The translations under genes were made by a program, and so were the position numbers. A stretch of 64,000 bases of DNA from Candidatus Bathyarchaeota archaeon (GTDB lineage Archaea; Thermoproteota; Bathyarchaeia; TCS64), in NCBI GenBank assembly GCA_963771885.1, contig CAVYVF010000002.1:96001-160000 (forward strand), in the 5' to 3' direction. The notes under the pieces were generated by a model. The model was not told the DNA's origin. It worked only from the letters and a program-made list of their open reading frames with translations, and searched no databases. How positions within the stretch are numbered: position 1 is the stretch's first letter; every line of letters begins with the position of its first letter. Positions 23,994-45,856 of the stretch are shown one piece after another.

Positions 23994-24809
23994 ATGATGG
24001 AGATCAGGTTCCACGGAAGGGGCGGCCAAGGCGCCGTCACCGGAGTTAGGCTCCTCTCAACCGCCATGTACTACGAGGGAAAGTACACCCTCGGCATACC
24101 CATGTACGGCACCGAGAGGCGCGGAGCACCGGTCCAATCGTTCCTCAGGGTCAGCGATGACAAGATTTGGGAGCGCGACCTCGTCCACGAGCCAGACATG
24201 GTCGTCGTCCTAGACCCACTCCTCGCGAAGACCGTCCCCGTCACACAGGGACTCAAGAAGGGCGGACTCGTTCTCGTCAATCACCCACATGGCGGTCTCG
24301 AGACGGGCATCGGCGGCCCATACAAGGTCGCCACCGTCGACGCGACGAAGGTCGCCATGGAGACAATCGGCAGGCCCATCACCAACACCGCCATCCTCGG
24401 CGCATTCGCCAAGGTGACTGGTATGGTCAAGCTTGAGAGCCTCGAAAAAGCTGCGCACCACCAGTGGAGCGGGCGCATCGGCGAGATGAACATAAAGGCT
24501 ATGCAGAAGGCATACGAGGTCGCCACCCCCGTCGTCGACGTCTCAAAGGTCAAGATGGAGGAGGTCAAGCTCGAGGGTCGCGCACGCAAGGCAGGCGAGA
24601 GAGACGTCTCCAGCTGGAGGCTCTACCGTCCAGTCTTCAACGACGCCAAGTGCGTCGGCTGCAAGCGCTGCTTCATACTCTGCCCCGAGGTCGCAATCGG
24701 CATGCAGAACAACAAGGCCGTCGTCAACTATAAGCACTGCAAGGGCTGCGGAATCTGCTTCGAGGAGTGCCCAACAAAGGCGATCAGCTGGGTCCAGGAG
24801 ACCATCTAA
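23994..24809 (+). CDS. 2-oxoacid:ferredoxin oxidoreductase gamma-delta fusion subunit
   Basis: HGRGGQG and YGTERRGAP (gamma) plus WR..RP and 2x CxxCxxCxxxCP (delta). Confidence 0.9.
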   Translation: MMEIRFHGRGGQGAVTGVRLLSTAMYYEGKYTLGIPMYGTERRGAPVQSFLRVSDDKIWERDLVHEPDMVVVLDPLLAKTVPVTQGLKKGGLVLVNHPHGGLETGIGGPYKVATVDATKVAMETIGRPITNTAILGAFAKVTGMVKLESLEKAAHHQWSGRIGEMNIKAMQKAYEVATPVVDVSKVKMEEVKLEGRARKAGERDVSSWRLYRPVFNDAKCVGCKRCFILCPEVAIGMQNNKAVVNYKHCKGCGICFEECPTKAISWVQETI

Positions 24810-24824
24810 GGAGGAGAATGATAC

Positions 24825-26004
24825 ATGCCAGAAAAGTTCGAGGTTATGGTCGGTAACAAGGCGGTCGCCCACGCCGTAAGGCTCTCGAGGGCGAAGTTCA
24901 TCTCCGCCTTCCCAATCACCCCCCAGACAACCATCGTCCAATACATCGCAGACATGGTCGCAAGTGGGGAGATCGACGCTGACTACGTCACGACTGAAGG
25001 CGAACTTACCGCTCAGGCATCCGCGTTCACCGCGGGCGCCGCAGGCGTACGCGCCTTCACAGCAACCGCGGGACCAGGACTACTCTACATGCACCACCCG
25101 ATGCTCGCCACCCGTAACAACAGGGTCCCAGTCGTCATGGCGCTCATGCACAGAGGCATCAAGGGTATGGACCCCGACCAGACCGACATGATGGCGCAGC
25201 GCGAGACCGGCTGGATGATGCTCGAGTGCGAGAGCGGCCAGGAGATACTCGACACCGGCCTCATGGCGTACAAGATCGCCGAGGACGAGCGCGTCCGCCT
25301 CCCAATCATCTTCGCAGGCGACGGCTACATACTCAGCTACACTGACGAGCCCATCAACATCCCTGACGAGGCAAAGGTCGACGCCTTCCTGCCCCCATAC
25401 AAGACGACGATCCCCCTCCTCCCAGACCAGGGACCAGAGAGCAAGGTATACCAGATGAAGGCTTGGAGCGTCGGACGCGACCCACAGGCAACCTTCCAGG
25501 ACGACCAGCAGGCGATGGAGAACGCCAAGAAGGTCATCAAGGAAGTCAACGCCGAGTACAAGAAGATGTTCGGCCGCGGCTACGGAAACGGCCTCGTCGA
25601 GGAGTACAAGACGAAGGACGTCGACGCAGTCATCGTCGCCATGGGAACGATAGCGAGCACAGCGCGCGTCGCAGTCGACAAGCTCCAGGCAGATGGCAAG
25701 AAAGTCGGCCTCGTGAAGCTCAAGACCATCAAGCCCTTCCCCGCCGAAGAGTTCGAGAAGCTCGGCCCTAGGTTCAAGGCGATGGGCATCGTCGACCGCA
25801 ACATAAGCATCGGCTCCGGAGGCTGGACCTTCGGCGAGATAAGGAACGCCATGTACGAGCTCGACGAGAGGCCCAAGACACTCCAGTTCCACGCGGGACT
25901 AAACGGCAAGGAAGTCCGAGTACAAGACATCATGAAGATAGGCGAGAAGACCCTCAAAGGCCGCGAGTGGCTCCAAGGTCTCTCCCCTAGTGGAGTGGGT
26001 CTAA
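24825..26004 (+). CDS. 2-oxoacid:ferredoxin oxidoreductase alpha subunit (extra A near 25958)
   Basis: FPITPQT and TATAGPG motifs. Removing one A gives ...KAASGSKVSPLVEWV* ending at 26004, just before the AGGAGG RBS of the beta gene. Confidence 0.9.
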
Positions 26005-26017
26005 GGAGGATAATGAA

Positions 26018-26914
26018 ATGAGCAAACCAGTTCCACTCGTGAAGCTAGACGAGAAAGAGTACATCTCAGCTGCGAACCAGTCCTGCCAGGGATGCACCGG
26101 CGCATCCGTCGCAAGGATCGTCGCAAAGGTCCTGAAGGACAAGATGGTCCGCCAGGAGGTCGCCTGCTGTGGACCAGCGTTCGGCAACCTAGAGCAGCCA
26201 AGCATCTACGGAGAAGTCTTCGAAGGCGCAGGCGCAATGTCCACGGGACTCGCCCACGCCTTCAAGAGGATGAACCGCGAGGACGCCATCGTCACCACCA
26301 TCGTCGGTGACGGAGGCACGACCGACATCGGCTTCCAGGGACTCTCAGGCGCAGCTGAGCGCAACGAGAACGTCCTCTGGGTCTGCTACGACAACGAGGC
26401 ATACATGAACACCGGCGGCCAGCGTAGTAGCGCCACCAGCAAGTACGCAGAGACGACCACCACTCCGGTCGGCGAGTTCAGCCGAGGCAAGAAGGAGAGG
26501 AAGAAGAACGTCGCCGCCATGGTCGCCCTCCACAGGGTGCCCTACATGGCGACGGCAAGCATCGCCTACCCCGAGGACTTCATCGGTAAGCTCGAGTACG
26601 CTAAGAACATCAAGGGCTTCCGCTTCATCCAGATCTCCGCGCCATGCCCGACAGGCTGGAGGTTCGACCCCCAGTACGCGGTCAAAATAGCGAAGGAGAT
26701 GGTCCTCAGTGGCATGTGGCCACTCTACGAGGTCATCAACGGCGAGAGCTTCCGCCTCACCTACAAGCCGAAGGAGATCAAGCCGATAAAGGACGTCCTC
26801 AAGATGCAGGGCAGGTTCCGCCATATCACCGAGGATGAGATAAAGGACATGCAGGACGATGTGACCGCTTACTGGGGCCGCCTCGTCTCAAAGGATGGTA
26901 AGGAGTTCTTCTAA
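26018..26914 (+). CDS. 2-oxoacid:ferredoxin oxidoreductase beta (TPP-binding) subunit
   Basis: CQGC, GDGG...DNEAYMNTGGQRS and PCPTGW motifs. Confidence 0.92.
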   Translation: MSKPVPLVKLDEKEYISAANQSCQGCTGASVARIVAKVLKDKMVRQEVACCGPAFGNLEQPSIYGEVFEGAGAMSTGLAHAFKRMNREDAIVTTIVGDGGTTDIGFQGLSGAAERNENVLWVCYDNEAYMNTGGQRSSATSKYAETTTTPVGEFSRGKKERKKNVAAMVALHRVPYMATASIAYPEDFIGKLEYAKNIKGFRFIQISAPCPTGWRFDPQYAVKIAKEMVLSGMWPLYEVINGESFRLTYKPKEIKPIKDVLKMQGRFRHITEDEIKDMQDDVTAYWGRLVSKDGKEFF

Positions 26915-27124
26915 ACTTCTTTATCATTTCCACTTTATTCTTCTAGTCAGGTTTTTCCGGTTACAATCAGTAAATAGTTTCCATACGCCGTTTTTTCAGG
27001 GGAATTTTTACTCACCAGATATTATTCTCTATACCAACATAAACAATATAAACAGTCATTAGAATAAATACTGATTCCTATTGCCGCACTCCGGATTCAG
27101 GGCAAAGGTTAGGCTGATGTAAAC

Positions 27125-27994
27125 ATGGCGAAGATACTGCTTCTAGGTCTCTCGGGAGACACTGGGTGCCAGGTAGCGACTGTTGGGCTACATGAAGCCC
27201 TACTCGGCATTCTCAAGGCGAACGAGCTAGTCTACGCGCCGACGCTGATGGACGCGAAGACGATCCCAGACAAGATCGACGTCGCTATAATCGAGGGCGG
27301 GTTACGTACCGAGCACGAGGTCGAGATCGCGAAGACGATCCGGGAGCGTTCCGGCGTCCTGATAACGCTCGGCTCCTGCGCCTGCTTCGGCGGAGTCCCC
27401 GGACTCGCCAACCTCAAACAGGGCGAGGAACTTCTCAAGAAGATCTACTCTCAGAAAGGGACAGTCGCCGCTGAGATGCCTACTCTTGATCGCCTTCTCG
27501 AAAAGCAGCAGGCGATCGGGGACTACGTCAAGGTTGACTTCAAGATACCAGGATGCCCACCGGAGACCGGAGAAATCGCCACCATACTGACGTCACTGTT
27601 GAGCGGAAAGATCCCTGAGCTTAGTAAGACTGATGTCTGTGAGCTATGCCCACGGGAGCGGATTGGCGAGTACAGTAAAAAGCTGAAGAGGATTTACGAG
27701 GAGGTCGACGACCCTGGCAGGTGCCTGCTTGAGCAAGGTTTCCTCTGTATGGGTCCTGCGACCATGGGCGGATGCGGCGCGCCATGCCCACAGGCAGGGA
27801 TGCCCTGCGACGGCTGCCGCGGGCCTACGGCGGGCAACAGCGATCAGGGACTCACCATGCTCGACGCCCTAACGAGCTTAACTCGCGAGGCGAATGAGAA
27901 TTTCAGTCTCCCCCAGTACGCGGGAACGCTCTACAGGTACACGTATCCAAGTAGTAAACTCGCGAAGGTTCTGAACGGAGGCGGCAAGAAGTGA
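27125..27994 (+). CDS. mvhG: Group 3c-type [NiFe]-hydrogenase small subunit
   Basis: IEGG, GSCACFGG, PGCPP, CELC, CLLEQGFLCMGPAT..GC...CP....PC.GC motifs. Confidence 0.85.
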   Translation: MAKILLLGLSGDTGCQVATVGLHEALLGILKANELVYAPTLMDAKTIPDKIDVAIIEGGLRTEHEVEIAKTIRERSGVLITLGSCACFGGVPGLANLKQGEELLKKIYSQKGTVAAEMPTLDRLLEKQQAIGDYVKVDFKIPGCPPETGEIATILTSLLSGKIPELSKTDVCELCPRERIGEYSKKLKRIYEEVDDPGRCLLEQGFLCMGPATMGGCGAPCPQAGMPCDGCRGPTAGNSDQGLTMLDALTSLTREANENFSLPQYAGTLYRYTYPSSKLAKVLNGGGKK

Positions 27995-29391
27995 CGGAAA
28001 CCATAACGATCAACCCCCTGACCCGGCTCGAGGGAACCGGTAAGGTCAAGATAGAGGTCGAGAACGGCGCGATTAAAGACCTCCAGCTCAACGTCGCCGT
28101 CGGGCCTAGGTTCTTCGAGTACCTGCTCACGAACAAGCAAGCGGAGGACGCTCCGAGGATAAGTGAGCGGATCTGCGGTATCTGCTACGTTAACCATCAC
28201 CTGGTCTCGGTGAAAGCTGTAGAGGACGCGTGGGGTGTACAAGTGCCAGAGGTCGCCACACTACTAAGGCGCACGCTGAACGCGGCGAGTTTCGTGACGA
28301 GCCACGCGCTCCACCTCGCCTTCTTGGCGCTCCCTGACCTCTTGCCCATACAGAGCCGCAACGTAATAGGCGTCGCCGACGCCAACCCGGAGCTCGCAAA
28401 CGCGGCGCTCCAACTCCACGAGTACGGAAACAGGGTCGTAACCGAGATAGGCGGGAGACTCGTCCACGTCGTCACGAGCGTTCCTGGAGGGCAGACGAAG
28501 GGTCTCACCGGCGAGGCACGGTACAAGCTCCTCAGGGAGGGTCGCATTGCGCTCACGAACGTGAGGAAGATCGCGGACGCCTTCTTCTCCCTCTACGAGA
28601 AGCGCGCGAACGACCCGACGGAGTACATGCACCTCAAAGCACCCTACATGGCGATGGTCAACAAGAGCGGCGGATATGAGCTCTATGACGGCGACATAAG
28701 AGTCAAGAATGGAGATGGGACCCAGCTCTTCCAGTTCCCAGCGCAGGAGTATTACAAACGTCTCGAGGAGACTACGAGTGCACACAGCTTCACCAAGATA
28801 CAGTACCTCAAGGACTTGGGTCCTAAGGACGGCTTGATGCGCGTCGGGCCCCTCGCTAGGATGAACGTCATCGACAGTATGCAGTGGGACACAACCGCCG
28901 AGTACATGAGGCGATACGAGAAATTATTCAAGCGTCCCACGGACGACACGGCAGCATACAACCTAGCCCGAACCGTCGAACTCGTAGCGTCGGTCGATGA
29001 GGTCCTCGATGGGCTGGGCAACGACGTCATCATGACGGAGCGGACACGCGAGCCAGTCAAGGCTCGAGCAGGCACAGGCTACGCCTTCGTCGAGGCACCC
29101 CGCGGGCTTCTCTTCCATAGCTACGAGATAGACGATAAGGGCATCATCAAGGAAGCGAACATCGTCGCGCCGACTACCTTCAACCACAAGAGCATCGAGA
29201 ACAATCTGAGATGCTGGGCCGATGCCCACGCCTCGGCGTTCACAAGGAAGGAGACGAGGCAGGATGCGATGTGGGGCATCGAAAAAATCGTCCGCGCCTA
29301 CGACCCCTGCCTGAGCTGCAGCGTCCACATGGTCGAGGTTGACGTGACAGTGGATGGAGAGGAGTACACGAACAGGAGGCAGGCACAATGA
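27991..29391 (+). CDS. mvhA: Group 3c-type [NiFe]-hydrogenase large subunit
   Basis: RICGIC (L1), EAPRG, and RAYDPCLSCSVH (L2) followed by a cleavable extension. Confidence 0.9.
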   Translation: MTETITINPLTRLEGTGKVKIEVENGAIKDLQLNVAVGPRFFEYLLTNKQAEDAPRISERICGICYVNHHLVSVKAVEDAWGVQVPEVATLLRRTLNAASFVTSHALHLAFLALPDLLPIQSRNVIGVADANPELANAALQLHEYGNRVVTEIGGRLVHVVTSVPGGQTKGLTGEARYKLLREGRIALTNVRKIADAFFSLYEKRANDPTEYMHLKAPYMAMVNKSGGYELYDGDIRVKNGDGTQLFQFPAQEYYKRLEETTSAHSFTKIQYLKDLGPKDGLMRVGPLARMNVIDSMQWDTTAEYMRRYEKLFKRPTDDTAAYNLARTVELVASVDEVLDGLGNDVIMTERTREPVKARAGTGYAFVEAPRGLLFHSYEIDDKGIIKEANIVAPTTFNHKSIENNLRCWADAHASAFTRKETRQDAMWGIEKIVRAYDPCLSCSVHMVEVDVTVDGEEYTNRRQAQ

Positions 29392-31712
29392 GTGCACTCG
29401 TATTCTTCGAGACATTCGGCGAGACCCTGAAGGAGAAGCTCGACGTCGACGCCCTGGAGAGGTACGCGAAGAAGATCGAGGGCGTCTACGACACCTACCA
29501 GATGCCTCTGCTCAACCAGAAGCTGATGCTCGAGAAGCTCATCGAGGTGAAGCAGAACGGCGGAAAGGATGTTTCAAGCGTCGTCGCAGTCACCGGATCA
29601 AGAGTAAGGCTCGAAAAACCCCTGCAGAGGGCGATGGAAGGCGCCGGTCTTGACCCGAACCAACTCGTCATCACGAACGTCCGCGAGCAGTGCGCCCTCG
29701 TCCATGATAGGGTGGAAGCAACTGAGAAGGCAAAGAGCCTCCTCCGCGTAGCCGTCAAGAAGGCGAGGCTCAGCACGCCCCTCGAGAGGAAGGTCGTGCA
29801 GCGCTTCAACGAGGTCCTGGTCATCGGTGGAGGCGTCGCGGGTATCCAGGCGTCACTCGACCTAGCAAAGCTCGGTGTCATGGTGCACCTAGTCGAGCGC
29901 GAGCCGACCATCGGGGGAATGATGCCACTGCTCGGTAAGACGTTTCCAGAGGATAGCTGCGCCATCTGCATCGGCGGTCCCAAGATGATGGACGTCGGCA
30001 ACGAGCCGAGCATAGAGGTGCTCGACAACAGCGAGGTCGAGGCAGTCATCAGGATGCCTGTGGGCTACCGCGTACACGTGAAGCGGAAGCCACGATACGT
30101 CGACGCGGAGAAGTGCGTAGCCTGTGGGCAGTGCACGGAGAGGTGTCCGGTTAGTGTTCCCGACCAGATAAACGGGGGCATCAACATGCGTAAGGCGGTG
30201 TACCTCCCCAACCCAAACGCCGTGCCGAGGAAGCATATCATCGACCCCGAAGCCTGCCTATACCTTACAAAGGGCAGCTGCCGCCTCTGCGAGCGCGTCT
30301 GCCCCAATCAGGCCATAAACTTCAAGGACGAGGAAAAGTACCGGGATTTTTATGTCGGCTCGATAATCGTCGCTACCGGCGTTGACAACTGGGATGCACG
30401 AAAGCACCCCAAGTATGGGGCGCAGTACCCGAATGTTATTGACCAGTTCCAGCTGGCACGTTACCTGGACGGTGAAGGGCCGACGGCAGGCATACTAACC
30501 AAGCCGAGCGATGGACAAAAGCCGAAGAAGATCGTAATGATCCAATGCGCAGGAAGCCGCGACCCTGAGATCAACCCTTGGTGCAGCCGATACTGCTGCA
30601 TGGCAGCGATGAAGCACGCCGAGGAGATCAAACTCCACCACGGTTCCGATATCGACATCACGATACTCTATAAGGACATACGCGCCGGCGGCAAGTACTA
30701 CGAGGAGTTCTATAACCGCGTAAAAACAGTGGGCATCAACTTCGTCCACGGCAACCTCGACGTCGTTAAAGAGGTCGAGGGCGGGGAGCTCATCGTCGAG
30801 TACACCGATGGGAAAGGACAGAGGACATCGACGCCTAGCGACCTAGTCGTCCTCAGCACCGGCATGGTGCCAAGCAAAGGGACGCTCGACCTCGCAGAGA
30901 GGCTCGGTATCGAGATCGGTGCCGACGGCTTCTTCAAGGAGGTGGACACGAAGGTCGCGAGCACAGTAACGAAGAGGCCGGGCATCTACCTCGCCGGGGC
31001 ATGTCACTCCCCGAAGGACATACCCGAGTCCGTCTCCCAGGCAAGCGCCGCGGCAGCGATGGCCGGACTTCACCTAATGAAGGAGGTCGATGCAAACAGG
31101 CCGATCCTGACACCGAAGGTCGACGAGGCGAGGTGCGGGCGCTGTGGTGTCTGCCCAACAGTCTGCCCATACCAGGCGATCACCATGCCCGCGGAAGGCC
31201 CCGTTCGCATAGACGAGACGCTATGTCAGAGCTGCGGTCTATGCATATCCAGCTGTCCGACGCGCGCCTTAGACAACCCGAACTTCGGCTTCGACCTCGT
31301 CGACGCCCAAGTAAAGGCGGCACTCGAAGGGCGAAAAGGGACAACTGTTGTAGGCTTCGCCTGCGCCGACTGCGGCTACAGACTGCTCGACATCGCGGGT
31401 GTCACAGGGGCCAAGTATAGTTCCTCATTTATCCCCATTTACGTCCCCTGCATGAGCACGATCAGCCTACGCCACATAGTTGGGGCCCTCGACCACGGGG
31501 CAGACGGTGTGATGCTCATCGGGTGTGTGAAGGATCGCTGTCACTTTGAGAAGGGCGTGGATCACGCCGAGGGGCAGCTTAGGTTCATGGAGAACCTCTA
31601 CGGAGAGGCGGGTATGCCAATCAGAGTGCTGAAGAGCTGCGGCTCGATGCTTGAACAGTTCCTCACCGAATTGGATGGGTTGGTCAAGCAGATTGAGGAG
31701 GCTAAGAAATGA
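29388..31712 (+). CDS. hdrA: HdrA-like flavo-Fe-S protein fused to an MvhD-like domain (copy 1, degenerate N-terminus)
   Basis: GGGVAG, QCAGSRD..CSRYCC, PKDI, four ferredoxin motifs, C-terminal FAC..C/PC/GC...C domain. Confidence 0.85.
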   Translation: MSALVFFETFGETLKEKLDVDALERYAKKIEGVYDTYQMPLLNQKLMLEKLIEVKQNGGKDVSSVVAVTGSRVRLEKPLQRAMEGAGLDPNQLVITNVREQCALVHDRVEATEKAKSLLRVAVKKARLSTPLERKVVQRFNEVLVIGGGVAGIQASLDLAKLGVMVHLVEREPTIGGMMPLLGKTFPEDSCAICIGGPKMMDVGNEPSIEVLDNSEVEAVIRMPVGYRVHVKRKPRYVDAEKCVACGQCTERCPVSVPDQINGGINMRKAVYLPNPNAVPRKHIIDPEACLYLTKGSCRLCERVCPNQAINFKDEEKYRDFYVGSIIVATGVDNWDARKHPKYGAQYPNVIDQFQLARYLDGEGPTAGILTKPSDGQKPKKIVMIQCAGSRDPEINPWCSRYCCMAAMKHAEEIKLHHGSDIDITILYKDIRAGGKYYEEFYNRVKTVGINFVHGNLDVVKEVEGGELIVEYTDGKGQRTSTPSDLVVLSTGMVPSKGTLDLAERLGIEIGADGFFKEVDTKVASTVTKRPGIYLAGACHSPKDIPESVSQASAAAAMAGLHLMKEVDANRPILTPKVDEARCGRCGVCPTVCPYQAITMPAEGPVRIDETLCQSCGLCISSCPTRALDNPNFGFDLVDAQVKAALEGRKGTTVVGFACADCGYRLLDIAGVTGAKYSSSFIPIYVPCMSTISLRHIVGALDHGADGVMLIGCVKDRCHFEKGVDHAEGQLRFMENLYGEAGMPIRVLKSCGSMLEQFLTELDGLVKQIEEAKK

Positions 31713-34123
31713 GCAACAACAAGGAAGAGCCACGCGTAGGAGTCTTCGTCTGCAGATGCGGCCTTAACGTGGCAAAGTCGGTTGATACGACGAGCCTAAA
31801 GGAGTTCGCCTCTAAGCTGCCAGGCGTTGTCTACACGGAGGAGAGCGACTTCGCCTGCAGTGACGCCGGTGTCAAGTCGATAAGTGAGGCGATTAAAGCG
31901 AACGGTGTGAACCGCGTCGTCGTCGCAGGTTGCTCCCCGTGGCTTCACGAGCCCACATTCCAGCGCATGATGGAGCGCGTCAGGCTCAATAAGTACCTTC
32001 TAGAGATCGCGAACATAAGAGAGCATTGTGCCCTCCTCTACCCCGGCCAGATACTCAAGGCGACCGAGAAGGCTAAGTTCATAGTCAAAGCCGCCGTCGA
32101 GAGGGCTAAGACACTCGAACCAGTCGAGAAGAAGAAGTTCCCCGTTAAGAAGTCCGTCCTCATTCTAGGTGGCGGAGTCGCCGGTGTCGAAGCCGCCAAG
32201 AGGATTGGGGACCTCGGAATGGAGGTGTTCCTCGTCGAGAAGACTCCCTTCCTGGGTGGGAAGGTGCTACAGCTCGGCTCTGTTTTCCCGAGTGACGACT
32301 GTGGTACGTGCGTCTCGCCGTGCGGAGATGACCTGCATCGCAGATGCTTCTATAGGAACACGATCTCCCACCACGAGCACGTCAACATCCTCACGTCAGC
32401 CGAACTCAGGAAGCTTACGGGGCACATCGGCAACTACAAGGCGACCATCGGCGTCAACCCGCGCCTCGTCAACGAGGAGCTCTGCATGGGCTGCGGGAAA
32501 TGCGCAGAGGTCTGCCCCGTCGAGGCGCCGAATGAGTTCAACTTCGGCTGGGACAAGAGGAAAGCAGTCTACATCCTGAGCGACCAGGCTCTGCCGAGGG
32601 TTTACGCGATAGACCCCGGCACATGCACGAGATGCGGCAAGTGCGCGGAGGCGTGCCCGGTAAAGGCGATTGACCTGAGCGAGCAGCCACGTGAGTTGAC
32701 TGTCGACATCGGCGCCGTTGTCGTGGCGACTGGCTTCCAGACCTTCGACCCCAAGGGCATGTACAGCTTCGGGGAGAACCCCAACATCGTCACCCAGATG
32801 CAGTTGGCGAGGATGCTCGATCAGTCCGGCCCGACTAAGGGGAAGGTAATACGCCCTGGCGATGGGCAGGAGCCCAAGCGCATCGCGATGATACAGTGCG
32901 TCGGCTCACGCGACCCCAAGGGGCATGAGTACTGCAGTAAGATATGCTGCAGCATCGCGGTGAAGCATGCGGTCGAGGTCATGGAGAAGAATCCTGAATC
33001 CGGCCTCGCAATTATCCATAAGGACATACGGTTGACCGGGAAGCACTACGAAGACTACTATTACAGGGCACAGAACTTAGGCGTCCGCCTTCTACGAGGC
33101 GAGGTCGAGGGTGTCACATCAATGCCCGATGGGTCGATACACATCGACGTGAAAGACGAGTACGGCGAGATTGTACCTCTCTACGTAGATCTTCTAGTAC
33201 TCTCGACCGGCCTTGAGCCATCCCTAGGAACCCCCGAACTGGCACAGAAGCTGGGCGTACCTCTATCCGTAGACGGCTTCTTTGCTGAGCGCGGACCGAA
33301 GATCGAGCCGCTTGATACCGCCGTCGAGGGCATCTTCATAGCGGGTACCGCACACGGACCAAAGGATATTCAGGAGAGCGTGACACAGGCACTCGGCGCG
33401 ACCGGGCGCGTAGCCTCGATGCTGATGCGTGGCGAGATGGAGATAGACCTCGCGAAGGCATGGGTGGACAAGGAGAAGTGCGTCGGCTGCGGCGCCTGCG
33501 CGAGTATTTGCCCATTCGCTGCCATCGAGTGGAGCGCCTTCGGCGAGCCTAAGGTCATTGAGGCGGCGTGCGAGGGCTGCGGTATCTGCAGCGCAGTCTG
33601 CCCAGTCTCTGCGATGCAGCTGCGCCACTACAAGGACGACCAAATCATCCCAAAGATCAAGGCGATACTGACGCCGAAATGGCTCAGCGAGGAGAAGAAG
33701 GACGAGCCCGTCATCGTCGCCTTCGCCTGCCAGTGGTGCAGCTACGCCGCCGCGGACACTGCGGGCAACATGGGGATGGAATACCCGGACAACATACGCA
33801 TAATCAGGGTTCCCTGTAGCGGGCGCATAGACGCCACGCACATCATCTCAGCCTTCAAGAACGGCGCAGATGGGGTGATTATCAGCGGCTGCCTCCCTAC
33901 TCAGTGTAACTACCTCACAGGAAACCTCGAAGCCATCGACCGCGTCGACGCAATGAAGAAGACACTAGACGTATTAGGCATCGGCGGCGAGCGCATCGAG
34001 ACAATCTTCACAAGCGCATGCATGCCGACGTGGCTAGTAATGATGTTTAAGGACTTCACGGAACGAGTGCAGATGCTAAACGAGGCCGCAAAACCGAAGC
34101 CTGAAACCGTCTCCCACGACTAG
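31709..34123 (+). CDS. hdrA: HdrA-like flavo-Fe-S protein fused to MvhD (copy 2)
   Basis: GVFVCRCG, AGCSP, QCVGSRD..CSKICC, GPKDI; MvhD motifs FACQWCSY, VPCSGR, SGC...C. Confidence 0.9.
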   Translation: MSNNKEEPRVGVFVCRCGLNVAKSVDTTSLKEFASKLPGVVYTEESDFACSDAGVKSISEAIKANGVNRVVVAGCSPWLHEPTFQRMMERVRLNKYLLEIANIREHCALLYPGQILKATEKAKFIVKAAVERAKTLEPVEKKKFPVKKSVLILGGGVAGVEAAKRIGDLGMEVFLVEKTPFLGGKVLQLGSVFPSDDCGTCVSPCGDDLHRRCFYRNTISHHEHVNILTSAELRKLTGHIGNYKATIGVNPRLVNEELCMGCGKCAEVCPVEAPNEFNFGWDKRKAVYILSDQALPRVYAIDPGTCTRCGKCAEACPVKAIDLSEQPRELTVDIGAVVVATGFQTFDPKGMYSFGENPNIVTQMQLARMLDQSGPTKGKVIRPGDGQEPKRIAMIQCVGSRDPKGHEYCSKICCSIAVKHAVEVMEKNPESGLAIIHKDIRLTGKHYEDYYYRAQNLGVRLLRGEVEGVTSMPDGSIHIDVKDEYGEIVPLYVDLLVLSTGLEPSLGTPELAQKLGVPLSVDGFFAERGPKIEPLDTAVEGIFIAGTAHGPKDIQESVTQALGATGRVASMLMRGEMEIDLAKAWVDKEKCVGCGACASICPFAAIEWSAFGEPKVIEAACEGCGICSAVCPVSAMQLRHYKDDQIIPKIKAILTPKWLSEEKKDEPVIVAFACQWCSYAAADTAGNMGMEYPDNIRIIRVPCSGRIDATHIISAFKNGADGVIISGCLPTQCNYLTGNLEAIDRVDAMKKTLDVLGIGGERIETIFTSACMPTWLVMMFKDFTERVQMLNEAAKPKPETVSHD

Positions 34124-35516: not shown

Positions 35517-36920
35517 TTAGGCGTGGTTTTGTTTCTTCGCTATGATCAACTCATGTATCGCCTTCGCCGCCTTCTTCCCCGCGCCCATAGCGCTGATTAC
35601 TGTTGCGGCGCCGCTGACAACGTCGCCTCCCGCGTACACGCCTGGTATCGCTGTCTGCATGGTTTCCTCGTTGACGACGATTGTTCCGTGACGCGTCGTT
35701 TGTAGCCCTTCGGTGGTCTGCTGGATGATGGGGTTCGGAGACTGCCCTATCGCTATCACTGCGGTGTCGATCTCTAGCATGAAGTTGCTTCCCTCGATTG
35801 GTTCGGGTCTACGCCTTCCAGACTGGTCAGGCTCGCTTAGGCGCTGCTTTACGCACTCAACTTTTTCTAGGAACCCGCGCTCGTTTCCGATGAACCGGAT
35901 TGGGTTGGTAAGGAGCATGAACTCTATGCCCTCCTCTTCGGCGTTCTCGACCTCCTCGGCTCTGGCAGGCATCTCGTCTTTGCTTCTGCGGTAGATTATG
36001 TAGACCTTTTCGGCGCCGAGGCGCAGTGCGCATCGGGCGGAGTCCATCGCGACGTTGCCAGCGCCGACGACTCCCACCTTCTTACCCACCCTGATCGGTG
36101 TGTCGTACTCAGGGAACCTGTAGGCCTTCATTAGGTTCGTGCGGATGAGGAACTCGTTTGCCGAGTATATCCCCTTCAGGTTCTCCCCGGGTACTCGGAG
36201 GAAGTTTGGTAACCCTGCCCCGGAGCCTACGAATACTGCGTCGTAACCGCCGTCCTTTAGTTCCTGGATGGTTGTGAGGAGGCCGACCGTGGAGTCTAAG
36301 CGCAACTCCACGCCGAGGCTCTTCACATACTCCACCTCGTTTTGCACTATCTCCTTTGGGAGCCTGAACTGTGGGATGCCGTACATGAGTACTCCGCCGG
36401 CTGTGTGCAGCGACTCGAACATCGTGACGCTGTGGCCGAGCTTGGCGAGGTCAGCCGCGACGGTCAAGCCTGCGGGGCCAGAACCAACGACCGCCACCTT
36501 TCCCCCGTTAACAGCAATATTTGATCTCTCCAGCTTAGTGTTTAGCCTCTCCCAGTCCGATGCGTATCTCTCGATGCGCCCTATTCCGACGGGGTCTCCT
36601 CTGACTCCAAGCACACAGAACTTTTGGCACTGCTCCTCCTGCGGGCAGACCCTGCCACATACTGCGGGAAGGGCGTTCTTCTCCTTGATCTTCCTCGCTG
36701 CGTCGCCGAACTTTCGTTCCTTTACTAGTTGAATGAACTCGGGGATTGGCACCTCGACGGGGCACCCCTTCTTGCACTGTGGCTTGGGGCAGTTGAGGCA
36801 CCTCGCCGCTTCATCGAGGGCGAGCTGCTCATCGAACCCGAGCGCGACCTCGTCGAAGTTATGGATCCTCTTCTCGACGCCCTGCTTCGGCATCTCGCTC
36901 TGTGGCTTCTTGTGCGCCAT
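35517..36920 (-). CDS. nfnB: NfnB/SudA (NADPH-dependent glutamate synthase beta-like) large subunit
   Basis: RCLNC....C...CP, GRVCPQEEQC, IER, GSGPAG, GIPQFRLP, GAGNVAMD and YRR motifs. Confidence 0.9.
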   Translation of the reverse strand: MAHKKPQSEMPKQGVEKRIHNFDEVALGFDEQLALDEAARCLNCPKPQCKKGCPVEVPIPEFIQLVKERKFGDAARKIKEKNALPAVCGRVCPQEEQCQKFCVLGVRGDPVGIGRIERYASDWERLNTKLERSNIAVNGGKVAVVGSGPAGLTVAADLAKLGHSVTMFESLHTAGGVLMYGIPQFRLPKEIVQNEVEYVKSLGVELRLDSTVGLLTTIQELKDGGYDAVFVGSGAGLPNFLRVPGENLKGIYSANEFLIRTNLMKAYRFPEYDTPIRVGKKVGVVGAGNVAMDSARCALRLGAEKVYIIYRRSKDEMPARAEEVENAEEEGIEFMLLTNPIRFIGNERGFLEKVECVKQRLSEPDQSGRRRPEPIEGSNFMLEIDTAVIAIGQSPNPIIQQTTEGLQTTRHGTIVVNEETMQTAIPGVYAGGDVVSGAATVISAMGAGKKAAKAIHELIIAKKQNHA

Positions 36921-36921
36921 C

Positions 36922-37741
36922 TCAGTCTCCTCCGTCAAACAACACCATCGCGATCTTCTCGCTTGGGTTGTAGAATCTCATTCTGTTGATCAGCTCCTCG
37001 TAGTTGACCTTGTGTCCGTCGAAGTCGGGTCCGTGCACGCAGGCGAACTTGGTCTCGTTTCCCACGCTGACCCTGCAAGCGCCGCACATGCCCGTTCCAT
37101 CGACCATAATGGGGAAGAGGTTCACCGTCGTGGGGATGCCATACGGTTTGGTCATCTCGGAGACGACCATCTGCATGCTAGTCGGTCCAATTGTCATCGC
37201 CTGAGCGAACTTTTTCTCGGCGAGTATCTTGCCGAGGAAGTTTAGGCCCTCCTCGCCCTCGGATCCGTCGTCCGTTGCGACGTGGAGCTCATCGCTGTAC
37301 TTTCTCAGTTCGTCGACAAGTATTAGGTGTTCCTTGCTTCTCGCACCAATGACAGTTGTTATTCTATTCCCAGCGTTTCTTCAACGCCTTCATTTGGTAT
37401 AGTAAAGCCCCCGCCATCACGCCTCCGCCGACGCACAGCACGTCGCCGTATTGTCGGATCTTCGTGGCGTTTCCTAGTGGGCCCGAGAAGTTCAGGATTG
37501 AGTCGCCTTCGTTCAGATTCCCTAGTTGAGTCGAGGATTTACCCACCTCGGCGAAGATGATGGTTACTAAGCCCTTTTCTGGGTTCGCGTCCGCGATTGT
37601 TATCGGGAACCTCTCCCCTTTCTCGTGGACGCGCACTATGACGAACTGCCCGGGCTTGGACTTTGCCGCAACAGCTGGTGCATGGACGTCGAATAGCTTG
37701 ATGTTCGATGCCAGTTTATCCTTCCGCACTATACCGTACAT
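36922..37741 (-). CDS. nfnA: NfnA/SudB small subunit, split by a +1 frameshift near 37377
   Basis: KPGQF..VR...GERFPITI, GPLG, VGGG, then MVDGTGMCGACRV...CVHGP. Removing one A joins the halves (KNAGNRITTVIGAR). Confidence 0.88.
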
Positions 37742-37882
37742 GAAGGGATCACAGTACATAGGGTCAATACTATAAAAACTTGTACATGTTGTATTTATTA
37801 TCCGTTAGTGTTCATTGAATGGAAAAACATGTGCAGGTAAAATGATTGTTTAGTTAAATGAAAAAAGATGAAATACGGGGGT

Positions 37883-39233
37883 TTAAGCGTAGACGCCTTG
37901 GGCGATCATCGCGTCGGCTACCTTGAGGAAGCCTGCGATGTTTGCGCCCATGACGTAGTCGCCGGGTTTGCCGAAGAGCTTTGCAGTGTCGTATGCGTTC
38001 TTGTGGATGTTGATCATGATGCCGTGTAGCTTCTGATCAACTTCCTCGAAGCTCCAGAAGTAGCGCTGGCTGTTCTGGACCATCTCGAGGCCACTTGTGG
38101 CTACGCCGCCTGCGTTGCTGGCCTTGCCGGGTGCGTATAGCACGCCACCTTCCTGGAGGACCTTGATTGCCTCTAAGCGTGCATGGCATGTTTGCGCCCT
38201 CGGTGACTGCCTTGCAGCCGTTATCGATGAGCTTCTTGGCGTCCTTATCGTTCAGCTCGTTCTGAGTCGCGCAGGGGTACGCGAGGTCACATTTGACGCC
38301 CCATGGGGTCTTCTTAGCCTCGTATGTAGCGCCCTTGAACTTCTCGGCATACTCGCTGATGCGGCCCCTCTTGACGTTCTTGAGCTCGAGTACGAAGGCG
38401 AGCTTTTTCTCGTCGATGCCGGCTGGGTCGTAGATGTAGCCGTCGGAGTCGCTTAGAGTGACTGGCTTAGCGCCGAGCTGGATGAGTTTCTGTACCGCGT
38501 ACTGTGCGACGTTTCCGGAGCCGGAGACGACCGCGACCTTACCCTTTAGGGATTCCTTCTTGGTCTTCATCATCTCCTCGCTGAAGTAGACTGCACCATA
38601 GCCGGTCGCCTCAGTCCTCGCAAGGCTGCCACCGAAGGTTAGGCCCTTGCCGGTGAGTACGCATGTGCCGTGGTTGTTCGTGATCTTGCGGTATGCGCCG
38701 TACATGTAGCCGATCTCTCGTCCGCCAACACCAATGTCGCCGGCGGGAACGTCGACGAACTGGCCGACGTGCCTGTAGATCTCTGCCATGAAGCTTGTAC
38801 AGAAAGACTCTACTTCTGCGTCAGTCTTGCCCTTGGGGTCAAAGTCAGAACCGCCCTTCGCACCACCCATTGGTAGGGTGGTGAGGCTGTTCTTGAAGGT
38901 CTGCTCGAATCCGAGGAACTTCATAACGCCTAGGTTGACTGTGGGGTGGAACCTGAAGCCGCCCTTGTATGGGCCGATCGCTGAGTTGTACTGCACACGG
39001 TAGCCGCGGTTGACCTGGATCTTCCCATCCTTGTCCTTCCAAGGAACACGGAACTGGATGATCCTCTCTGGCTCAACCATGCGCTCAAGAATGGCGTTCT
39101 CCTGGTACTTAGGGAACTTCTTGATCGCGGGCTCGATGGTCGCCAGAACCTCATAGGCTGCCTGGTGGAACTCCTTCTGCAGGGGATCCTTCTCAACGAG
39201 GCTCTTGTAGATGCTCTCAATATACTTATCCAA
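37883..39233 (-). CDS. gdhA: NADP-specific-type glutamate dehydrogenase, split by a +1 frameshift near 38175
   Basis: GPYKGG.RFH, GGAKGG, DVPAGD, SGSGNVA and EGANMP motifs, then APGKASNAGGVATS in the next frame. Confidence 0.92.
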
Positions 39234-39656
39234 TTTTCGCGCCTCTCATAAACTCACGGTATCCCGTATATATTGCTATCCATCTTTCTCCATTATTAAT
39301 TTGATATTTATTTCCACTAAAATAAATACTGAATGTTATGATATTTTAAGAAAATTGTGTTCAATTTTATCGGATATGTAGATATTATTCGTTTATGTTA
39401 TTTGATGAAAGTTGACGTTTGTCATTACACTATTCTTATAATTTAGTCAAATTCAATTTTCCTTTTCGAAGCTTGTTTTATTTGTTCGACGATAGCTTTA
39501 AATCCATTCCTTAGAAAGCCTAGGAGATGGTATGTACAGGTAAGGTAGGTGTATTTACATACCCTTACTCCCCATCTGCGCGAATGGGATATAAACTTAG
39601 CTTTACCTGTTGGAAGATATCATCTTCAGACTCAATCAGGTTCGTGAGTGGATAGC
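39234..39656. promoter_or_regulatory. AT-rich divergent promoter region between gdh-nfn and the ech operon
   Basis: Very AT-rich; TTTAAAT box at about 39497-39503 on the + strand; TATATA-like box near 39267-39272 for gdh. Confidence 0.6.
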
Positions 39657-41597
39657 ATGGATAGCGAGTTACTTGTTGCGTTACTGGTCGGTCTCCCCGC
39701 GGTAGCGGGGCTGTTGTGTTATTTCCTCAAGAACAAGACCGCCATCAAGGCGATTGTTGGGATCAGCGCAGTTGCCTTGATCGGTTCGACGATTCTGCTT
39801 TATCAGAACGACGGCTTCGTGCTCAAGACGAGCACGTTAATCGATGACCTAGTCCTCATCGCGGACTTTGCCTTACTATTGTACTTCCTCTACATTGGGT
39901 GGCAGAAGGCAAACCTGCCAATCATCGGTTTGACTCTGACCTACATTGTTCCCCTTGCATACTTCGAGTACTGGCACTACAACGAGGAGATCACTCCTAC
40001 GATGTTTGCGGACCAGCTCTCAATCACTATGTCCCTCATTGTCGGCGTGATAGGCTCCATCGTGTGTATCTATGCGCTCAGATACATGGATGACCACTCA
40101 AAGCACATGGAGTCGCTGACTGGGCGCGACAGGTTCGTCCAGAAGGCGAACCAGCCCAAGTTCTTCCTCTTCATGCTTCTCCTCCTCGGCGCGATGAATG
40201 GGCTTGTCTATAGCAACGACTTGACGTGGCTCGCGTTCTTCTGGGAGATCACTACGCTCTGTTGCTATGAGCTCATCAGGTATGATGGGACAGAGGTAGC
40301 TGAGGCAAACGCCCAGCGCGCCCTCTGGATGGGCATAGTCGGAGGAGCCGCCTTCATGGGTGCACTCTGGCTGAGCTACCAATATCTTGGGATCCCGTCC
40401 CTAACGGCGCTCCTAGCCTCCCCCACCACGACCCCTGTCCTGCTGATATTCGCGCTGCTAGCCGTGGCGGCGTTTAGCAAGTCGGCTCAGCTACCATTCC
40501 AAAACTGGCTCCTCGGGGCCATGGTTGCACCTACACCCGTGTCGGCTCTCCTTCACTCAAGCACGATGGTCAATGCTGGTGTATACCTGATCCTCAGGAT
40601 CGCCCCCAAGCTAGTCGGGACGAATCTGAGCTACGGAATTGCTGCCGTCGGAATATTCACGTTCATGTTCACTTCCATCATGGCGCTGAACCAGCGTGTC
40701 TCCAAGTCTATACTCGCCTACTCCACGATCGGTAACCTAGGCCTAATGATCTTCTGCGCCAGCATGGCGACCCCACTTTCCTACTCCGCCGCTATTATTC
40801 TGCTCATCTTCCACTCGATGTCCAAGGGCCTGCTCTTCATGACGGCCGGGATAATTGAGAACAAGCTCCATAGCAGGAACATCGCCGACTGGCAGGGTTT
40901 GCTCGCGAGGCTGCCGTTCACGACGACCGTCATGATTATCGGCATTGTGAGCATGTTCCTCCCTATCTTCGGCGTGTTGCTTGGCAAGTGGGCGGCCGTA
41001 GGCGTCGTCTCCAACGCGCCTCTGCTCCCCGCACTTGCGATGATAATAATGCTTCTCATAGGAAGCTCGGCGAGCATGCTGTTCTGGGCGAAGTGGCTCG
41101 GTAACTTCATCATGGCACCCGCCGGTAAAGCCAAAGCCTCAGAGGAGGATTTACCCCTCATCTACAAGTTCACGCTACTCATCGTCCTCGCGTTGGACAT
41201 CGCAGCGAGCATAGGTTCAGGCTTCGTCATCGGGAACTTTGTCGTTCCAACGATGATCCGTCAGTTCACATGGGTCACCCCACCCGATCCATCGATATTC
41301 GTCGCGCAGCTGGGCGGTTTCCTAATCTGGCAGCTCTGGATCGCGATCGGCGCTGTCATCGCCTTTGGACTGATAATCAGCAGGACGAAGAAGGGACAGC
41401 TACAGCCTGCTTACCTATCAGGCGAAAACGTCGAAGACAACCCCATCGCCTTCAGAACGACGGGTGACACGGTTGTCGACACGACAGTGGCTGGCATGTT
41501 CTTCGACCCTACAATCTCTACCTCCCGCTGGGAGCGATGGGCCATCATTCTAAGCATCGGCCTAATCGCACTTACGTTCGCTCTGGTGGTGTTGTAA
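39657..41597 (+). CDS. echA: EchA/NuoL-like antiporter subunit
   Basis: FFWE, KSAQLPF, AMVAPTPVSALLHSSTMV, HSMSKGLLF motifs. Confidence 0.9.
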   Translation: MDSELLVALLVGLPAVAGLLCYFLKNKTAIKAIVGISAVALIGSTILLYQNDGFVLKTSTLIDDLVLIADFALLLYFLYIGWQKANLPIIGLTLTYIVPLAYFEYWHYNEEITPTMFADQLSITMSLIVGVIGSIVCIYALRYMDDHSKHMESLTGRDRFVQKANQPKFFLFMLLLLGAMNGLVYSNDLTWLAFFWEITTLCCYELIRYDGTEVAEANAQRALWMGIVGGAAFMGALWLSYQYLGIPSLTALLASPTTTPVLLIFALLAVAAFSKSAQLPFQNWLLGAMVAPTPVSALLHSSTMVNAGVYLILRIAPKLVGTNLSYGIAAVGIFTFMFTSIMALNQRVSKSILAYSTIGNLGLMIFCASMATPLSYSAAIILLIFHSMSKGLLFMTAGIIENKLHSRNIADWQGLLARLPFTTTVMIIGIVSMFLPIFGVLLGKWAAVGVVSNAPLLPALAMIIMLLIGSSASMLFWAKWLGNFIMAPAGKAKASEEDLPLIYKFTLLIVLALDIAASIGSGFVIGNFVVPTMIRQFTWVTPPDPSIFVAQLGGFLIWQLWIAIGAVIAFGLIISRTKKGQLQPAYLSGENVEDNPIAFRTTGDTVVDTTVAGMFFDPTISTSRWERWAIILSIGLIALTFALVVL

Positions 41598-41598
41598 A

Positions 41599-42465: not shown

Positions 42466-42466
42466 A

Positions 42467-42925
42467 ATGAAGTTGATGACTAAAGCCCGGCTCAAGTCTC
42501 CATGGGTCCTCCACTACGACACCGGTAGCTGTAACGGCTGCGATATCGAGATACTCGCCGCCCTCACACCAAAGTTCGATGCTGAGAGGTTCGGCATAGT
42601 CAACATTGGTGACCCTAAGCAGGCGGACATACTACTCATCACCGGGCCGGCGAACCATCGTAACAAGACCGTCCTCAAGAACCTTTACGATCAGATGCCT
42701 GAGCCAAAGCTAGTCATGGCGATCGGCGAATGCGCGTGTTCGGGCGCGATATTCCACAACTGCCCCAACACTCTCGGAGGCGTCGACAAAGTCGTACCCG
42801 TTGACGTCTACGTCCCCGGCTGCGCAGTACGACCTGAGCAGATAGTCGATGGCGTAATCCTAGCGCTAGGGAAACTCGCTGAGAAGAGCGAGCAAATGGA
42901 GCAGAAGGAGAAGAAGGGTGAGTAA
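42467..42925 (+). CDS. echC: Group 4 hydrogenase small subunit
   Basis: GSCNGCDIE, GECA and PGC..RP motifs. Confidence 0.92.
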   Translation: MKLMTKARLKSPWVLHYDTGSCNGCDIEILAALTPKFDAERFGIVNIGDPKQADILLITGPANHRNKTVLKNLYDQMPEPKLVMAIGECACSGAIFHNCPNTLGGVDKVVPVDVYVPGCAVRPEQIVDGVILALGKLAEKSEQMEQKEKKGE

Positions 42926-45855: not shown

Positions 45856-45856
45856 G

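What the first reader, a model, noticed from the sequence alone, without database searches (positions are those of the whole stretch)
27125..34123. MvhGA with two non-identical HdrA-MvhD fusions and no HdrBC: candidate heterodimeric HdrA complex
Seen: a translationally coupled four-gene operon, mvhG-mvhA-hdrA'mvhD'-hdrA''mvhD'', with no hdrB/C in the window. Copy 1 has lost the N-terminal cluster cysteines (no CxCG or CSP) but keeps the FPxxxC cysteine, while copy 2 keeps the full set. Established: methanogen HdrA is a homodimer in which one N-terminal cluster ligand comes from the partner subunit. Inference: an asymmetric HdrA heterodimer linking H2 to ferredoxin and an acceptor other than CoM-S-S-CoB, placed directly after a ferredoxin-reducing 2-oxoacid oxidoreductase.
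Basis: partly seen in the sequence, partly recalled or inferred. Interest (0 to 1): 0.7.

Follow-up and report, generated by a model that had tools for sequence, protein, structure and literature searches.

The report
Asymmetric double-HdrA hydrogenase lacking HdrBC
An uncultured archaeon (Bathyarchaeia) encodes a hydrogen-converting enzyme whose flavoprotein core appears to be built from two unlike halves that have both lost the patch thought to bind the usual sulfur-reducing partner, so it probably balances electrons in a non-methanogenic way that nobody has yet tested.

Summary
The operon mvhG-mvhA-hdrA1-hdrA2 is real, intact and conserved. The genome does encode several hdrBC sets elsewhere, so their absence from the window proves nothing. 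However, both copies lack a surface motif found in 42 of 46 hdrBC-adjacent HdrAs (0 of 31 A1 and 0 of 37 A2 orthologs). A1 and A2 are old, non-sister, co-inherited lineages. The N-terminal shuttle-cluster cysteines are lost from A1 in this genus, from A2 in a related genus, and from both in 0 of 25 scorable loci, which favours a heterodimer. Orthologs in other Bathyarchaeia, Thermoprotei and Asgard archaea lie beside metVF; this scan noted that form before on other DNA (e1-5503427). This genome shows no MetV, acetyl-CoA synthase or Mcr, so the module looks repurposed, probably for fermentative H2/ferredoxin balancing. New here: the reciprocal cluster loss, a four-cysteine loop in A2 that appears only where A1 lost its cluster, and the double loss of the presumed HdrBC dock. 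HdrA heterodimers as such are published. The link to the pyruvate oxidoreductase genes is lineage-specific. No structure could be predicted and the second electron carrier is unknown. New variant of a known kind.

The parts
27125..27994 (+). mvhG, small subunit of a group 3c [NiFe] hydrogenase; first proximal-cluster Cys replaced by Asp (SGDTGC), a change kept across the family except L019
   Evidence: (5odc_E, E 3e-73)
27991..29391 (+). mvhA, large subunit; both Ni-binding motifs intact (C62/C65, C440/C443)
   Evidence: (5odc_F, E 4e-89)
29388..31712 (+). hdrA1 fused to a divergent MvhD'. Keeps the CxxC pair (C191/C194), HA4 ligands (C387, C399, C403, C404), Lys409, both ferredoxin domains and the MvhD Cys; Glu356 is Ala
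29388..29792 (+). N-terminal domain of A1 without shuttle-cluster (HA3) cysteines, still under purifying selection (dN/dS 0.06-0.16 in the 4 unsaturated of 6 pairs)
30747..30809 (+). A1 hairpin (HGN...EYTD) in place of the RGRP...EDT motif of hdrBC-adjacent HdrAs; presumed HdrBC dock lost
   Evidence: contact with HdrC is inferred, not measured
31709..34123 (+). hdrA2 fused to a canonical MvhD (a separate gene in orthologs outside this family). Keeps the N-terminal cluster Cys, HA4 ligands and the Lys409 equivalent (K419); Glu356 is Ala
32300..32347 (+). A2 flavin-side insert C198-x2-C201-x3-C205-x4-H-x2-C213; candidate extra metal or Fe-S site. The last Cys is family-wide; C205 occurs only in the clade whose A1 lost its cluster
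33095..33157 (+). A2 hairpin (RGEV...DVKD) in place of RGRP...EDT; presumed HdrBC dock lost
26915..27124 (+). 210-bp AT-rich spacer (35% GC) with T-rich tracts after porB; probably separates the por and mvh transcripts (inference)
   Evidence: the bacterial promoter scan was uninformative
23994..26914 (+). context: porG/D-porA-porB, 2-oxoacid:ferredoxin oxidoreductase; neighbour in part of this genus only
35517..39233 (-). context: nfnB, nfnA (frameshifted) and gdh (frameshifted); neighbours in both main genera (convergent here, co-directional in g8)

Best explanation
The operon encodes an asymmetric MvhAG-(HdrA1·HdrA2) complex that does not use HdrBC. SHOWN: gene content, motif states, co-inheritance, selection. 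INFERRED from solved Mvh-Hdr structures, in which the mobile arm of one HdrA serves the flavin of the other: A2's arm (canonical MvhD, intact HA3 shuttle) links the hydrogenase to A1's FAD, which is the one bifurcating site; the low-potential branch runs HA3(A2) - inserted ferredoxin domain(A1) - soluble ferredoxin. A1's arm has no shuttle, so A2's flavin, with its extra Cys/His loop, has another job. The high-potential branch at HA4 no longer goes to HdrBC. In the ancestral form it most likely went to MetVF (methylene-pterin reductase of the Wood-Ljungdahl pathway). In this genome, where no MetV, ACS/CODH or Mcr was found, it goes to another carrier, most plausibly F420 or NAD(P), perhaps through A2's flavin. 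The likely direction here is fermentative: reduced ferredoxin from 2-oxoacid oxidation plus a two-electron carrier drive H2 release (confurcation). Architecture about 0.75; this chemistry on top of it about 0.45 in all.
For: A1 and A2 clades 100/100 and 99/99 with Asgard rows added, not sisters, similar branching. A1 lies directly upstream of A2 in all 39 of 41 family loci with upstream DNA; hdrB/C in 1 of 41, divergent. Shuttle Cys lost from A1 only in 7, from A2 only in 16, from neither in 2, from both in 0 of 25 scorable loci. [RK]P motif in 42 of 46 hdrBC-adjacent HdrAs, 0 of 31 A1, 0 of 37 A2; also absent from 8 of 8 HdrAs of the hdrBC-free metVF clusters of Ca. Syntrophoarchaeum. metVF beside the operon in L036, L037, L072, L076, L081, L145, L150, L217, L239 and metV in L153. 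G403 has the operon and no CCG match; G024 (96% complete) has only an hdrB inside its own hdrA cluster and one HdrD-like gene. 11 of 14 operon-bearing genomes of the genus show neither ACS nor MetV. cofE and an frhB-like gene are present. Arm mechanism: PMC13580544. One bifurcating and one non-bifurcating flavin in BamE (bioRxiv 10.64898/2026.04.10.717634). MetV pulled down HdrA but not HdrB in Sporomusa (PMC9430772). Type Ia HdrA uses F420H2 without a recognised site (PMC12054007).
Against: Both copies lack Glu356, a proposed marker of bifurcating HdrA; only the Thermoprotei A1 keeps it. No second carrier or acceptor gene is linked to the operon in this genus. The genome has at least six hdrB genes. 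The dock motif was found post hoc, among related sequences, and its contact with HdrC was not checked on coordinates; 4 of 46 hdrBC-adjacent HdrAs lack the Pro, and some HdrAs with no hdrBC in view keep the motif. The cluster losses are two evolutionary events, not 23 independent ones. The assembly is 92% complete with 6.7% contamination and indel errors.
Confidence: 0.45

Rival explanations
1. Same heterodimer without HdrBC, but not bifurcating: a soluble H2:ferredoxin oxidoreductase whose flavins are relays or structural.
For: Glu356 is Ala in both copies. The same change marks methanogen HdrAs that NCBIfam names ferredoxin:CoB-CoM reductase (L210, L204). No acceptor gene travels with the operon in the family.
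Against: Both HA4 sites, both Lys409, both CxxC pairs and one shuttle are kept in every scorable pair. A 1,578-residue flavoprotein pair under strong selection seems excessive for a plain wire. 21.7% of 401 HdrAs lack E356 (PMC12054007), so the rule is loose.
Confidence: 0.22
2. The pair docks an HdrBC encoded elsewhere and reduces a non-methanogenic disulfide.
For: hdrC-hdrB pairs at C23:970932, 983153 and 991709 and at C20:171, further hdrB at C7:78787 and C23:765425. hdrA and hdrBC are unlinked in methanogens. The closest relatives of A2 with the same insert sit in mvhG-mvhA-hdrA-hdrC-hdrB operons.
Against: Those relatives keep the RGRP..ED motif; A1 and A2 do not. Neither of two candidate hdrB genes tracks the operon. 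G403 has no CCG match, and G024 no spare hdrBC.
Confidence: 0.12
3. The complex still serves MetVF, encoded in trans and simply missing from this assembly.
For: metVF beside orthologs in three lineages; metV found in 20 of 32 genomes of g8 and 6 of 17 of g1.
Against: No MetV, ACS, CODH or Mer found in G000. 11 of 14 operon-bearing g1 genomes (82-94% complete) show neither MetV nor ACS. G024 (96%) shows neither.
Confidence: 0.12
4. A1 and A2 form two separate homodimers that share the hydrogenase.
For: Both keep Cys197 and all domains, unlike the published complementary pairs. A single HdrA without HA3 cysteines exists in the sister operon.
Against: Never seen apart. The losses are reciprocal and never double. 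An A1 homodimer would have neither shuttle nor insert.
Confidence: 0.07
5. Copy 1 is a recent, decaying duplicate.
For: Loss of four N-terminal cysteines; this domain evolves somewhat faster than the rest of A1.
Against: 34% identity to copy 2; non-sister clades that span Thermoproteota and Asgard; dN/dS 0.03-0.16 in unsaturated comparisons.
Confidence: 0.02

Closest known systems
MvhAGD-HdrABC of hydrogenotrophic methanogens (PDB 5ODC, 8RVU, 9SFI; PMC13580544)
   Same: Group 3c hydrogenase, MvhD adaptor, five-domain HdrA, Cys194/197 pair, HA4 ligands, Lys409.
   Different: Two unlike HdrAs, each fused to MvhD; one shuttle cluster only; Glu356 is Ala; presumed HdrBC dock lost; no Mcr found in the genome.
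Tandem and fused heterodimeric HdrA (ANME HdrA5/6 and 12/13; type II HdrA3/4; BamE) (PMC9012536, PMC12054007, bioRxiv 10.64898/2026.04.10.717634)
   Same: Broken two-fold symmetry; one partner lacks the N-terminal cluster; probably one bifurcating flavin.
   Different: There one copy lacks whole domains and the other lacks Cys197, and BamE binds an HdrBC-like subunit (BamD). Here both copies keep all domains, Cys197 and an MvhD, the loss is by point changes and reciprocal between genera, and neither keeps the dock motif.
Hdr-type methylene-tetrahydrofolate reductase HdrCBA-MvhD-MetVF (Moorella, Sporomusa; PMC9430772) and the MetFV-HdrA-MvhD cluster of Ca. Syntrophoarchaeum (PMC9012536)
   Same: HdrA linked to MetVF; the Syntrophoarchaeum HdrAs also lack hdrBC and the dock motif.
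   Different: Input is a [NiFe] hydrogenase; the window's own lineage has lost the link to metVF.
Type Ia HdrA-MvhD fusions, such as Methanosarcina HdrA2B2C2 (PMC6019823, PMC12054007)
   Same: MvhD fused to HdrA; best NCBIfam hit NF040770 for both copies.
   Different: Scores 659 and 868, under the cut-off of 1100; a pair, with MvhAG and without HdrBC.

Membership tests
Group 3c Mvh hydrogenase | MvhA with both Ni-binding CxxC motifs and MvhG with three cluster sites, closest to solved Mvh | tested here: met
   one MvhG ligand is Asp
MvhAGD-HdrABC | HdrB and HdrC in the complex | tested here: inconclusive
   not in the operon; present in trans; dock motif absent from both copies; binding itself not testable
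MvhAGD-HdrABC | One HdrA type as a homodimer, each copy with the HA3 ligands | tested here: not met
   two 34%-identical HdrAs; A1 lacks the HA3 Cys
MvhAGD-HdrABC | CoM-S-S-CoB formed by Mcr as acceptor | tested here: not met
   no PF02249 match in a 92% complete genome
Bifurcating HdrA (sequence rule) | Lys409 | tested here: met
   K409 in A1, K419 in A2
Bifurcating HdrA (sequence rule) | Glu356 | tested here: not met
   Ala in both; Glu only in Thermoprotei A1
Bifurcating HdrA (sequence rule) | Coupled reduction of ferredoxin and a high-potential acceptor | not testable with these tools
   needs enzyme assays
Complementary HdrA heterodimers (PMC9012536) | One partner lacks the N-terminal cluster | tested here: met
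   (Cys lost, domain kept)
Complementary HdrA heterodimers (PMC9012536) | The partner with the N-terminal domain lacks Cys197, and C-terminal ferredoxin domains are complementary | tested here: not met
Complementary HdrA heterodimers (PMC9012536) | Physical A1-A2 dimer | not testable with these tools
Hdr-type MetVF reductase | metV and metF linked or present | tested here: not met
   no MetV in G000; met for orthologs elsewhere
HdrA2 (NCBIfam NF040770) | Score over the curated cut-off of 1100 | tested here: not met
   659 and 867.5 bits

The most novel reading that the evidence does not exclude
A self-contained electron-confurcating [NiFe] hydrogenase built on an HdrA heterodimer. A2's four-cysteine loop holds a new fixed Fe-S cluster at the site where methanogen HdrA carries the unexplained Cys-pair ligand, and it replaces the shuttle cluster lost from A1. 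A2's flavin takes over the role of HdrBC as the high-potential port for F420H2 or NAD(P)H. The enzyme would then make H2 from reduced ferredoxin plus a hydride carrier with no thiol chemistry, having descended from an H2-driven bifurcating methylene-pterin reductase.
Probability: 0.2. Interest if true: 0.85.

Novelty: new variant of a known kind. Interest (0 to 1): 0.6.

Why it matters
The role of Mvh-type hydrogenases in non-methanogenic Bathyarchaeia is stated as unclear in print (PMC9534799, passage). This family gives a defined, testable case. It also offers natural variants for two open points of HdrA chemistry: how electrons cross the gap between the MvhD cluster and the flavin at the conserved Cys pair (PMC13580544, PMC13518236), and whether HdrA can bifurcate without HdrBC. 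The three states of one orthologous complex (two shuttles, shuttle on A2 only, shuttle on A1 only) form a ready comparative series. The dock motif, if confirmed on coordinates, would be a simple sequence test for which HdrAs use HdrBC.

Tried and rejected
Glu356-to-Ala as a sign of HdrBC loss: rejected, since 33 of 46 hdrBC-adjacent HdrAs in my set carry Ala. The A2 insert as unique to this family: rejected, related CxxC...R[KR]C inserts occur in HdrAs with hdrBC. A1/A2 as a duplication within the family: rejected (both are quick trees with SH-aLRT support only and no rooted clade test; 7 of 103 rows dropped as too short). por as obligate partner: rejected. A dedicated hdrB in trans: two candidates tested, neither tracks the operon; the C7 hdrB was not profiled on its own. 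The ~780-aa HdrA 18 kb away in relatives is not a second pair but a single hdrA behind hdrC-hdrB. The sigma-70 promoter scan gave chance-level counts. RNA: two metatranscriptomes hold small shares (0.07, 0.05); contigs about 93-98% identical bridge the mvhA/A1 and A1/A2 junctions and none of the 16 listed bridges the por-mvhG spacer (228 pieces not shown); contigs cannot show levels or a single transcript. No paper on the HdrA-HdrC contact residues was found, nor a measured HA4-HA4' distance. A Qmo-like origin of the insert lineage was a lead only (one search gave no informative names).
Full report
OBSERVATION. The four genes are present as described, intact, and joined by 4-nt start/stop overlaps. 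MvhG and MvhA are closest to the solved Mvh subunits of 5ODC, with both nickel motifs intact. The two HdrA-MvhD fusions are 34% identical. A1 lacks the four N-terminal cysteines that A2 has at 15, 17, 50 and 75; both keep the Cys194/Cys197 pair, the four HA4 ligands, Lys409, both ferredoxin domains and the MvhD cysteines (5ODC numbering; positions). That C13, C42, C67 and C72 are the MvhD cluster ligands is recalled, not from a call. Three features were not in the finding: both copies have Ala at Glu356; A2 carries an insert C198-x2-C201-x3-C205-x4-H-x2-C213; MvhG has Asp in place of its first cluster cysteine in the whole family but L019.

ORGANISM AND GENOME. Near relatives are titled Bathyarchaeia. 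The assembly is 2.46 Mb, 92% complete, 6.7% contaminated, with many frameshifts outside this operon. It holds at least six hdrB genes: three in two Hdr clusters on C23 that have their own hdrA (one also with a second mvhGA), and three on C7, C20 and C23 beside other partners or a contig end. No McrA, MetV, ACS, CODH or Mer was found; cofE and an frhB-like gene were.

DISTRIBUTION. A profile of the A2 insert region finds 40 of 401 genomes of the class at E below 1e-31, then nothing until 1e-19. A scan of genome contigs gave 43 loci, 41 of this family. A1 lies directly upstream of A2 in all 39 with upstream DNA; hdrB/C appear in one, divergently. por is upstream in 6 of 41 and gdh and/or nfnAB downstream in 25 of 41; many loci are cut short. 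A 210-bp spacer of 35% GC separates porB from mvhG.

AN OLD PAIR. On trees of the flavin core, A1 and A2 each form a clade (100/100; 99/99 with Asgard rows), are not sisters, and branch in a similar order. These are quick trees without a rooted test. Copy 1 is not decaying: dN/dS is 0.06-0.16 in its cysteine-free N-terminal domain and 0.03-0.05 in the rest, in the comparisons that were not saturated.

RECIPROCAL LOSS. Of 25 loci with both N-termini in view, 7 have lost the cluster cysteines in A1 only (the window's type), 16 in A2 only (genus g8), 2 in neither, 0 in both; L035-L037 and four Asgard loci also keep both. These are two events, not many. The fourth loop cysteine of A2 is present in all 7 loci whose A1 lost the cluster and in 0 of the other 18; this is one event. 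In solved complexes the arm of one HdrA, which carries MvhD and the HA3 shuttle, serves the flavin of the other, and the Cys pair binds an unidentified ligand between them (PMC13580544, passages). One shuttle per pair, on either partner, is what an obligate heterodimer with one working bifurcation site predicts. The gain of a cysteine on the flavin that lost its shuttle suggests a replacement site. Both points are inference.

NO HDRBC DOCK. I compared 46 non-redundant HdrAs that abut hdrB/C with 31 A1 and 37 A2 orthologs, all drawn from loci L016-L211. A motif G[RK]PxE...[E]D stood out: [RK]P in 42 of 46, the Glu in 46 of 46; in A1 0 and 1 of 31; in A2 0 and 6 of 37, one A2 row being empty there. 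Methanogen HdrAs whose hdrBC lie elsewhere keep it (alignments), and so do the closest relatives of A2, which sit in mvhG-mvhA-hdrA-hdrC-hdrB operons. As a later check, 8 of 8 HdrAs in two hdrBC-free metVF clusters of Ca. Syntrophoarchaeum lack it; in fused dimers the second flavin domain lacks it in all rows printed, while the first keeps it in some (P0040, P0043, P0047) and not clearly in others (P0059, P0062, P0077). Against: some HdrAs with no hdrBC in view keep it, the motif was found post hoc among kin, and I could not confirm on coordinates or in print that it touches HdrC. Genome content agrees: G403 has the operon and no CCG match, three related genomes have one hdrB inside a membrane hydrogenase cluster, G024 (96% complete) has no spare hdrBC, and two candidate hdrB genes do not track the operon. 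Glu356-to-Ala does not bear on this: 33 of the 46 hdrBC-adjacent proteins have it, among them methanogen ferredoxin:CoB-CoM reductases.

THE ANCESTRAL ACCEPTOR. Outside this family the order is usually hdrA1-hdrA2-mvhD-mvhG-mvhA, with metV-metF next to it in L036, L037, L072, L076, L081, L145, L150, L217 and L239, metV in L153, and CODH/ACS genes next to L035, L076 and L109 (L217 and L239 by gene order only, not placed on a tree). I saw this link; scan note e1-5503427 reports the same gene set in a Hermod-type Asgard archaeon, and one search puts Hermod loci in the same two clades. MetV pulled down HdrA but not HdrB in Sporomusa (PMC9430772, passages). An H2-driven methylene-pterin reductase is thus the best reading of the ancestor. 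It cannot be the whole story here: of 14 operon-bearing genomes of the genus, 3 have MetV and ACS and 11 show neither.

MECHANISM. I commit to an HdrBC-free A1·A2 heterodimer with the hydrogenase on A2's canonical MvhD, bifurcation at A1's flavin, ferredoxin at A1's inserted domain, and a non-thiol carrier on the high-potential side; in this genome most likely running toward H2 release during fermentation of amino acids or 2-oxoacids, in line with the neighbours por, gdh and nfnAB. F420 is a candidate because the genome has cofE and because type Ia HdrA uses F420H2 without a recognised site (PMC12054007; PMC6019823). That A2's flavin is this port needs the two HA4 clusters to be close, which I recall but could not confirm. 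Odds: architecture about 0.75, full statement 0.45; plain H2:ferredoxin relay 0.22; HdrBC in trans 0.12; MetVF in trans 0.12; homodimers 0.07; decay 0.02.

WHAT IS KNOWN. Heterodimeric HdrA by N-terminal-domain/Cys197 complementarity was proposed for ANME (PMC9012536, passages), type II fusions are catalogued (PMC12054007, abstract, parts 1-2 of 7 and passages), and BamE shows one bifurcating and one non-bifurcating flavin (bioRxiv 10.64898/2026.04.10.717634, passages). I also read passages of PMC13518236, PMC12350162, PMC3087415, PMC10667645, PMC5947623, PMC9534799 and PMC11631310. Wagner 2017, Appel 2021 and Yan 2017 were not seen and are cited through these. Searches listed no paper that describes this operon by title or abstract, and the passages I read do not; most listed papers were not opened, the library lacks most subscription journals, and I did not open the supplements of PMC12054007 (gene-cluster tables) or PMC9012536 (S8 Fig), which may hold related clusters.

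VERDICT. Real, conserved, and a new variant of a known kind. The principle is published and the metVF-linked form was noted earlier by this scan. What this locus adds is the derived state without MetVF, the reciprocal shuttle loss, the four-cysteine loop and the double loss of the presumed HdrBC dock. Interest 0.6.

Noticed in passing
window 39648-46195 (+): Ech-like membrane-bound group 4 [NiFe] hydrogenase cluster whose NuoC-like subunit (42918-44723, 601 aa) is fused to a GltD/NfnB-like NAD(P)H flavoprotein; the large subunit keeps both Ni motifs. In four relatives a matching nuoL-nuoH-gltD run is followed by hdrC-hdrB-hdrA (L051-L053, L070), which the window lacks.
   Followed up: partly
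L114-L130, L187, L193-L195: A widespread Bathyarchaeia operon mvhG-mvhA-hdrA(mvhD')-hdrC-hdrB whose single HdrA lacks all N-terminal shuttle cysteines and mostly carries a CxxC...RKC insert: a shuttle-less HdrA with HdrBC.
   Followed up: partly
G000 C23:970932-976958: hdrC-hdrB-(Fe-S subunit)-(SdhA/FrdA-like)-hdrA-mvhD' next to fumarate hydratase-like genes: looks like a thiol:fumarate reductase joined to an Hdr module (gene names by inspection); the same order in L136.
   Followed up: no
G000 C7:75591-79674 and C23:764946-768327: hdrB without hdrA behind nuoE/F/G-like genes, and hdrB in front of a molybdopterin oxidoreductase.
   Followed up: partly
L133:5611-11941, L134:6303-12602, L135: An hdrB-like gene inside a membrane hydrogenase/complex I-like cluster in three Thermoprotei-type genomes, their only CCG gene.
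   Followed up: no
L110:5766-15871, L112:2653-12844: Asgard clusters with two hdrC-hdrB pairs and three unlike hdrA genes plus mvhD.
   Followed up: partly
window 36922-39233 (-): nfnA and gdh are each split by a frameshift but intact in most relatives: probably assembly indels.
   Followed up: partly
L029/L074 and L105: Record titles name bacteria (Patescibacteria, Krumholzibacteriaceae), yet the operon genes are of the Bathyarchaeia types: likely mislabelled or misbinned contigs.
   Followed up: no
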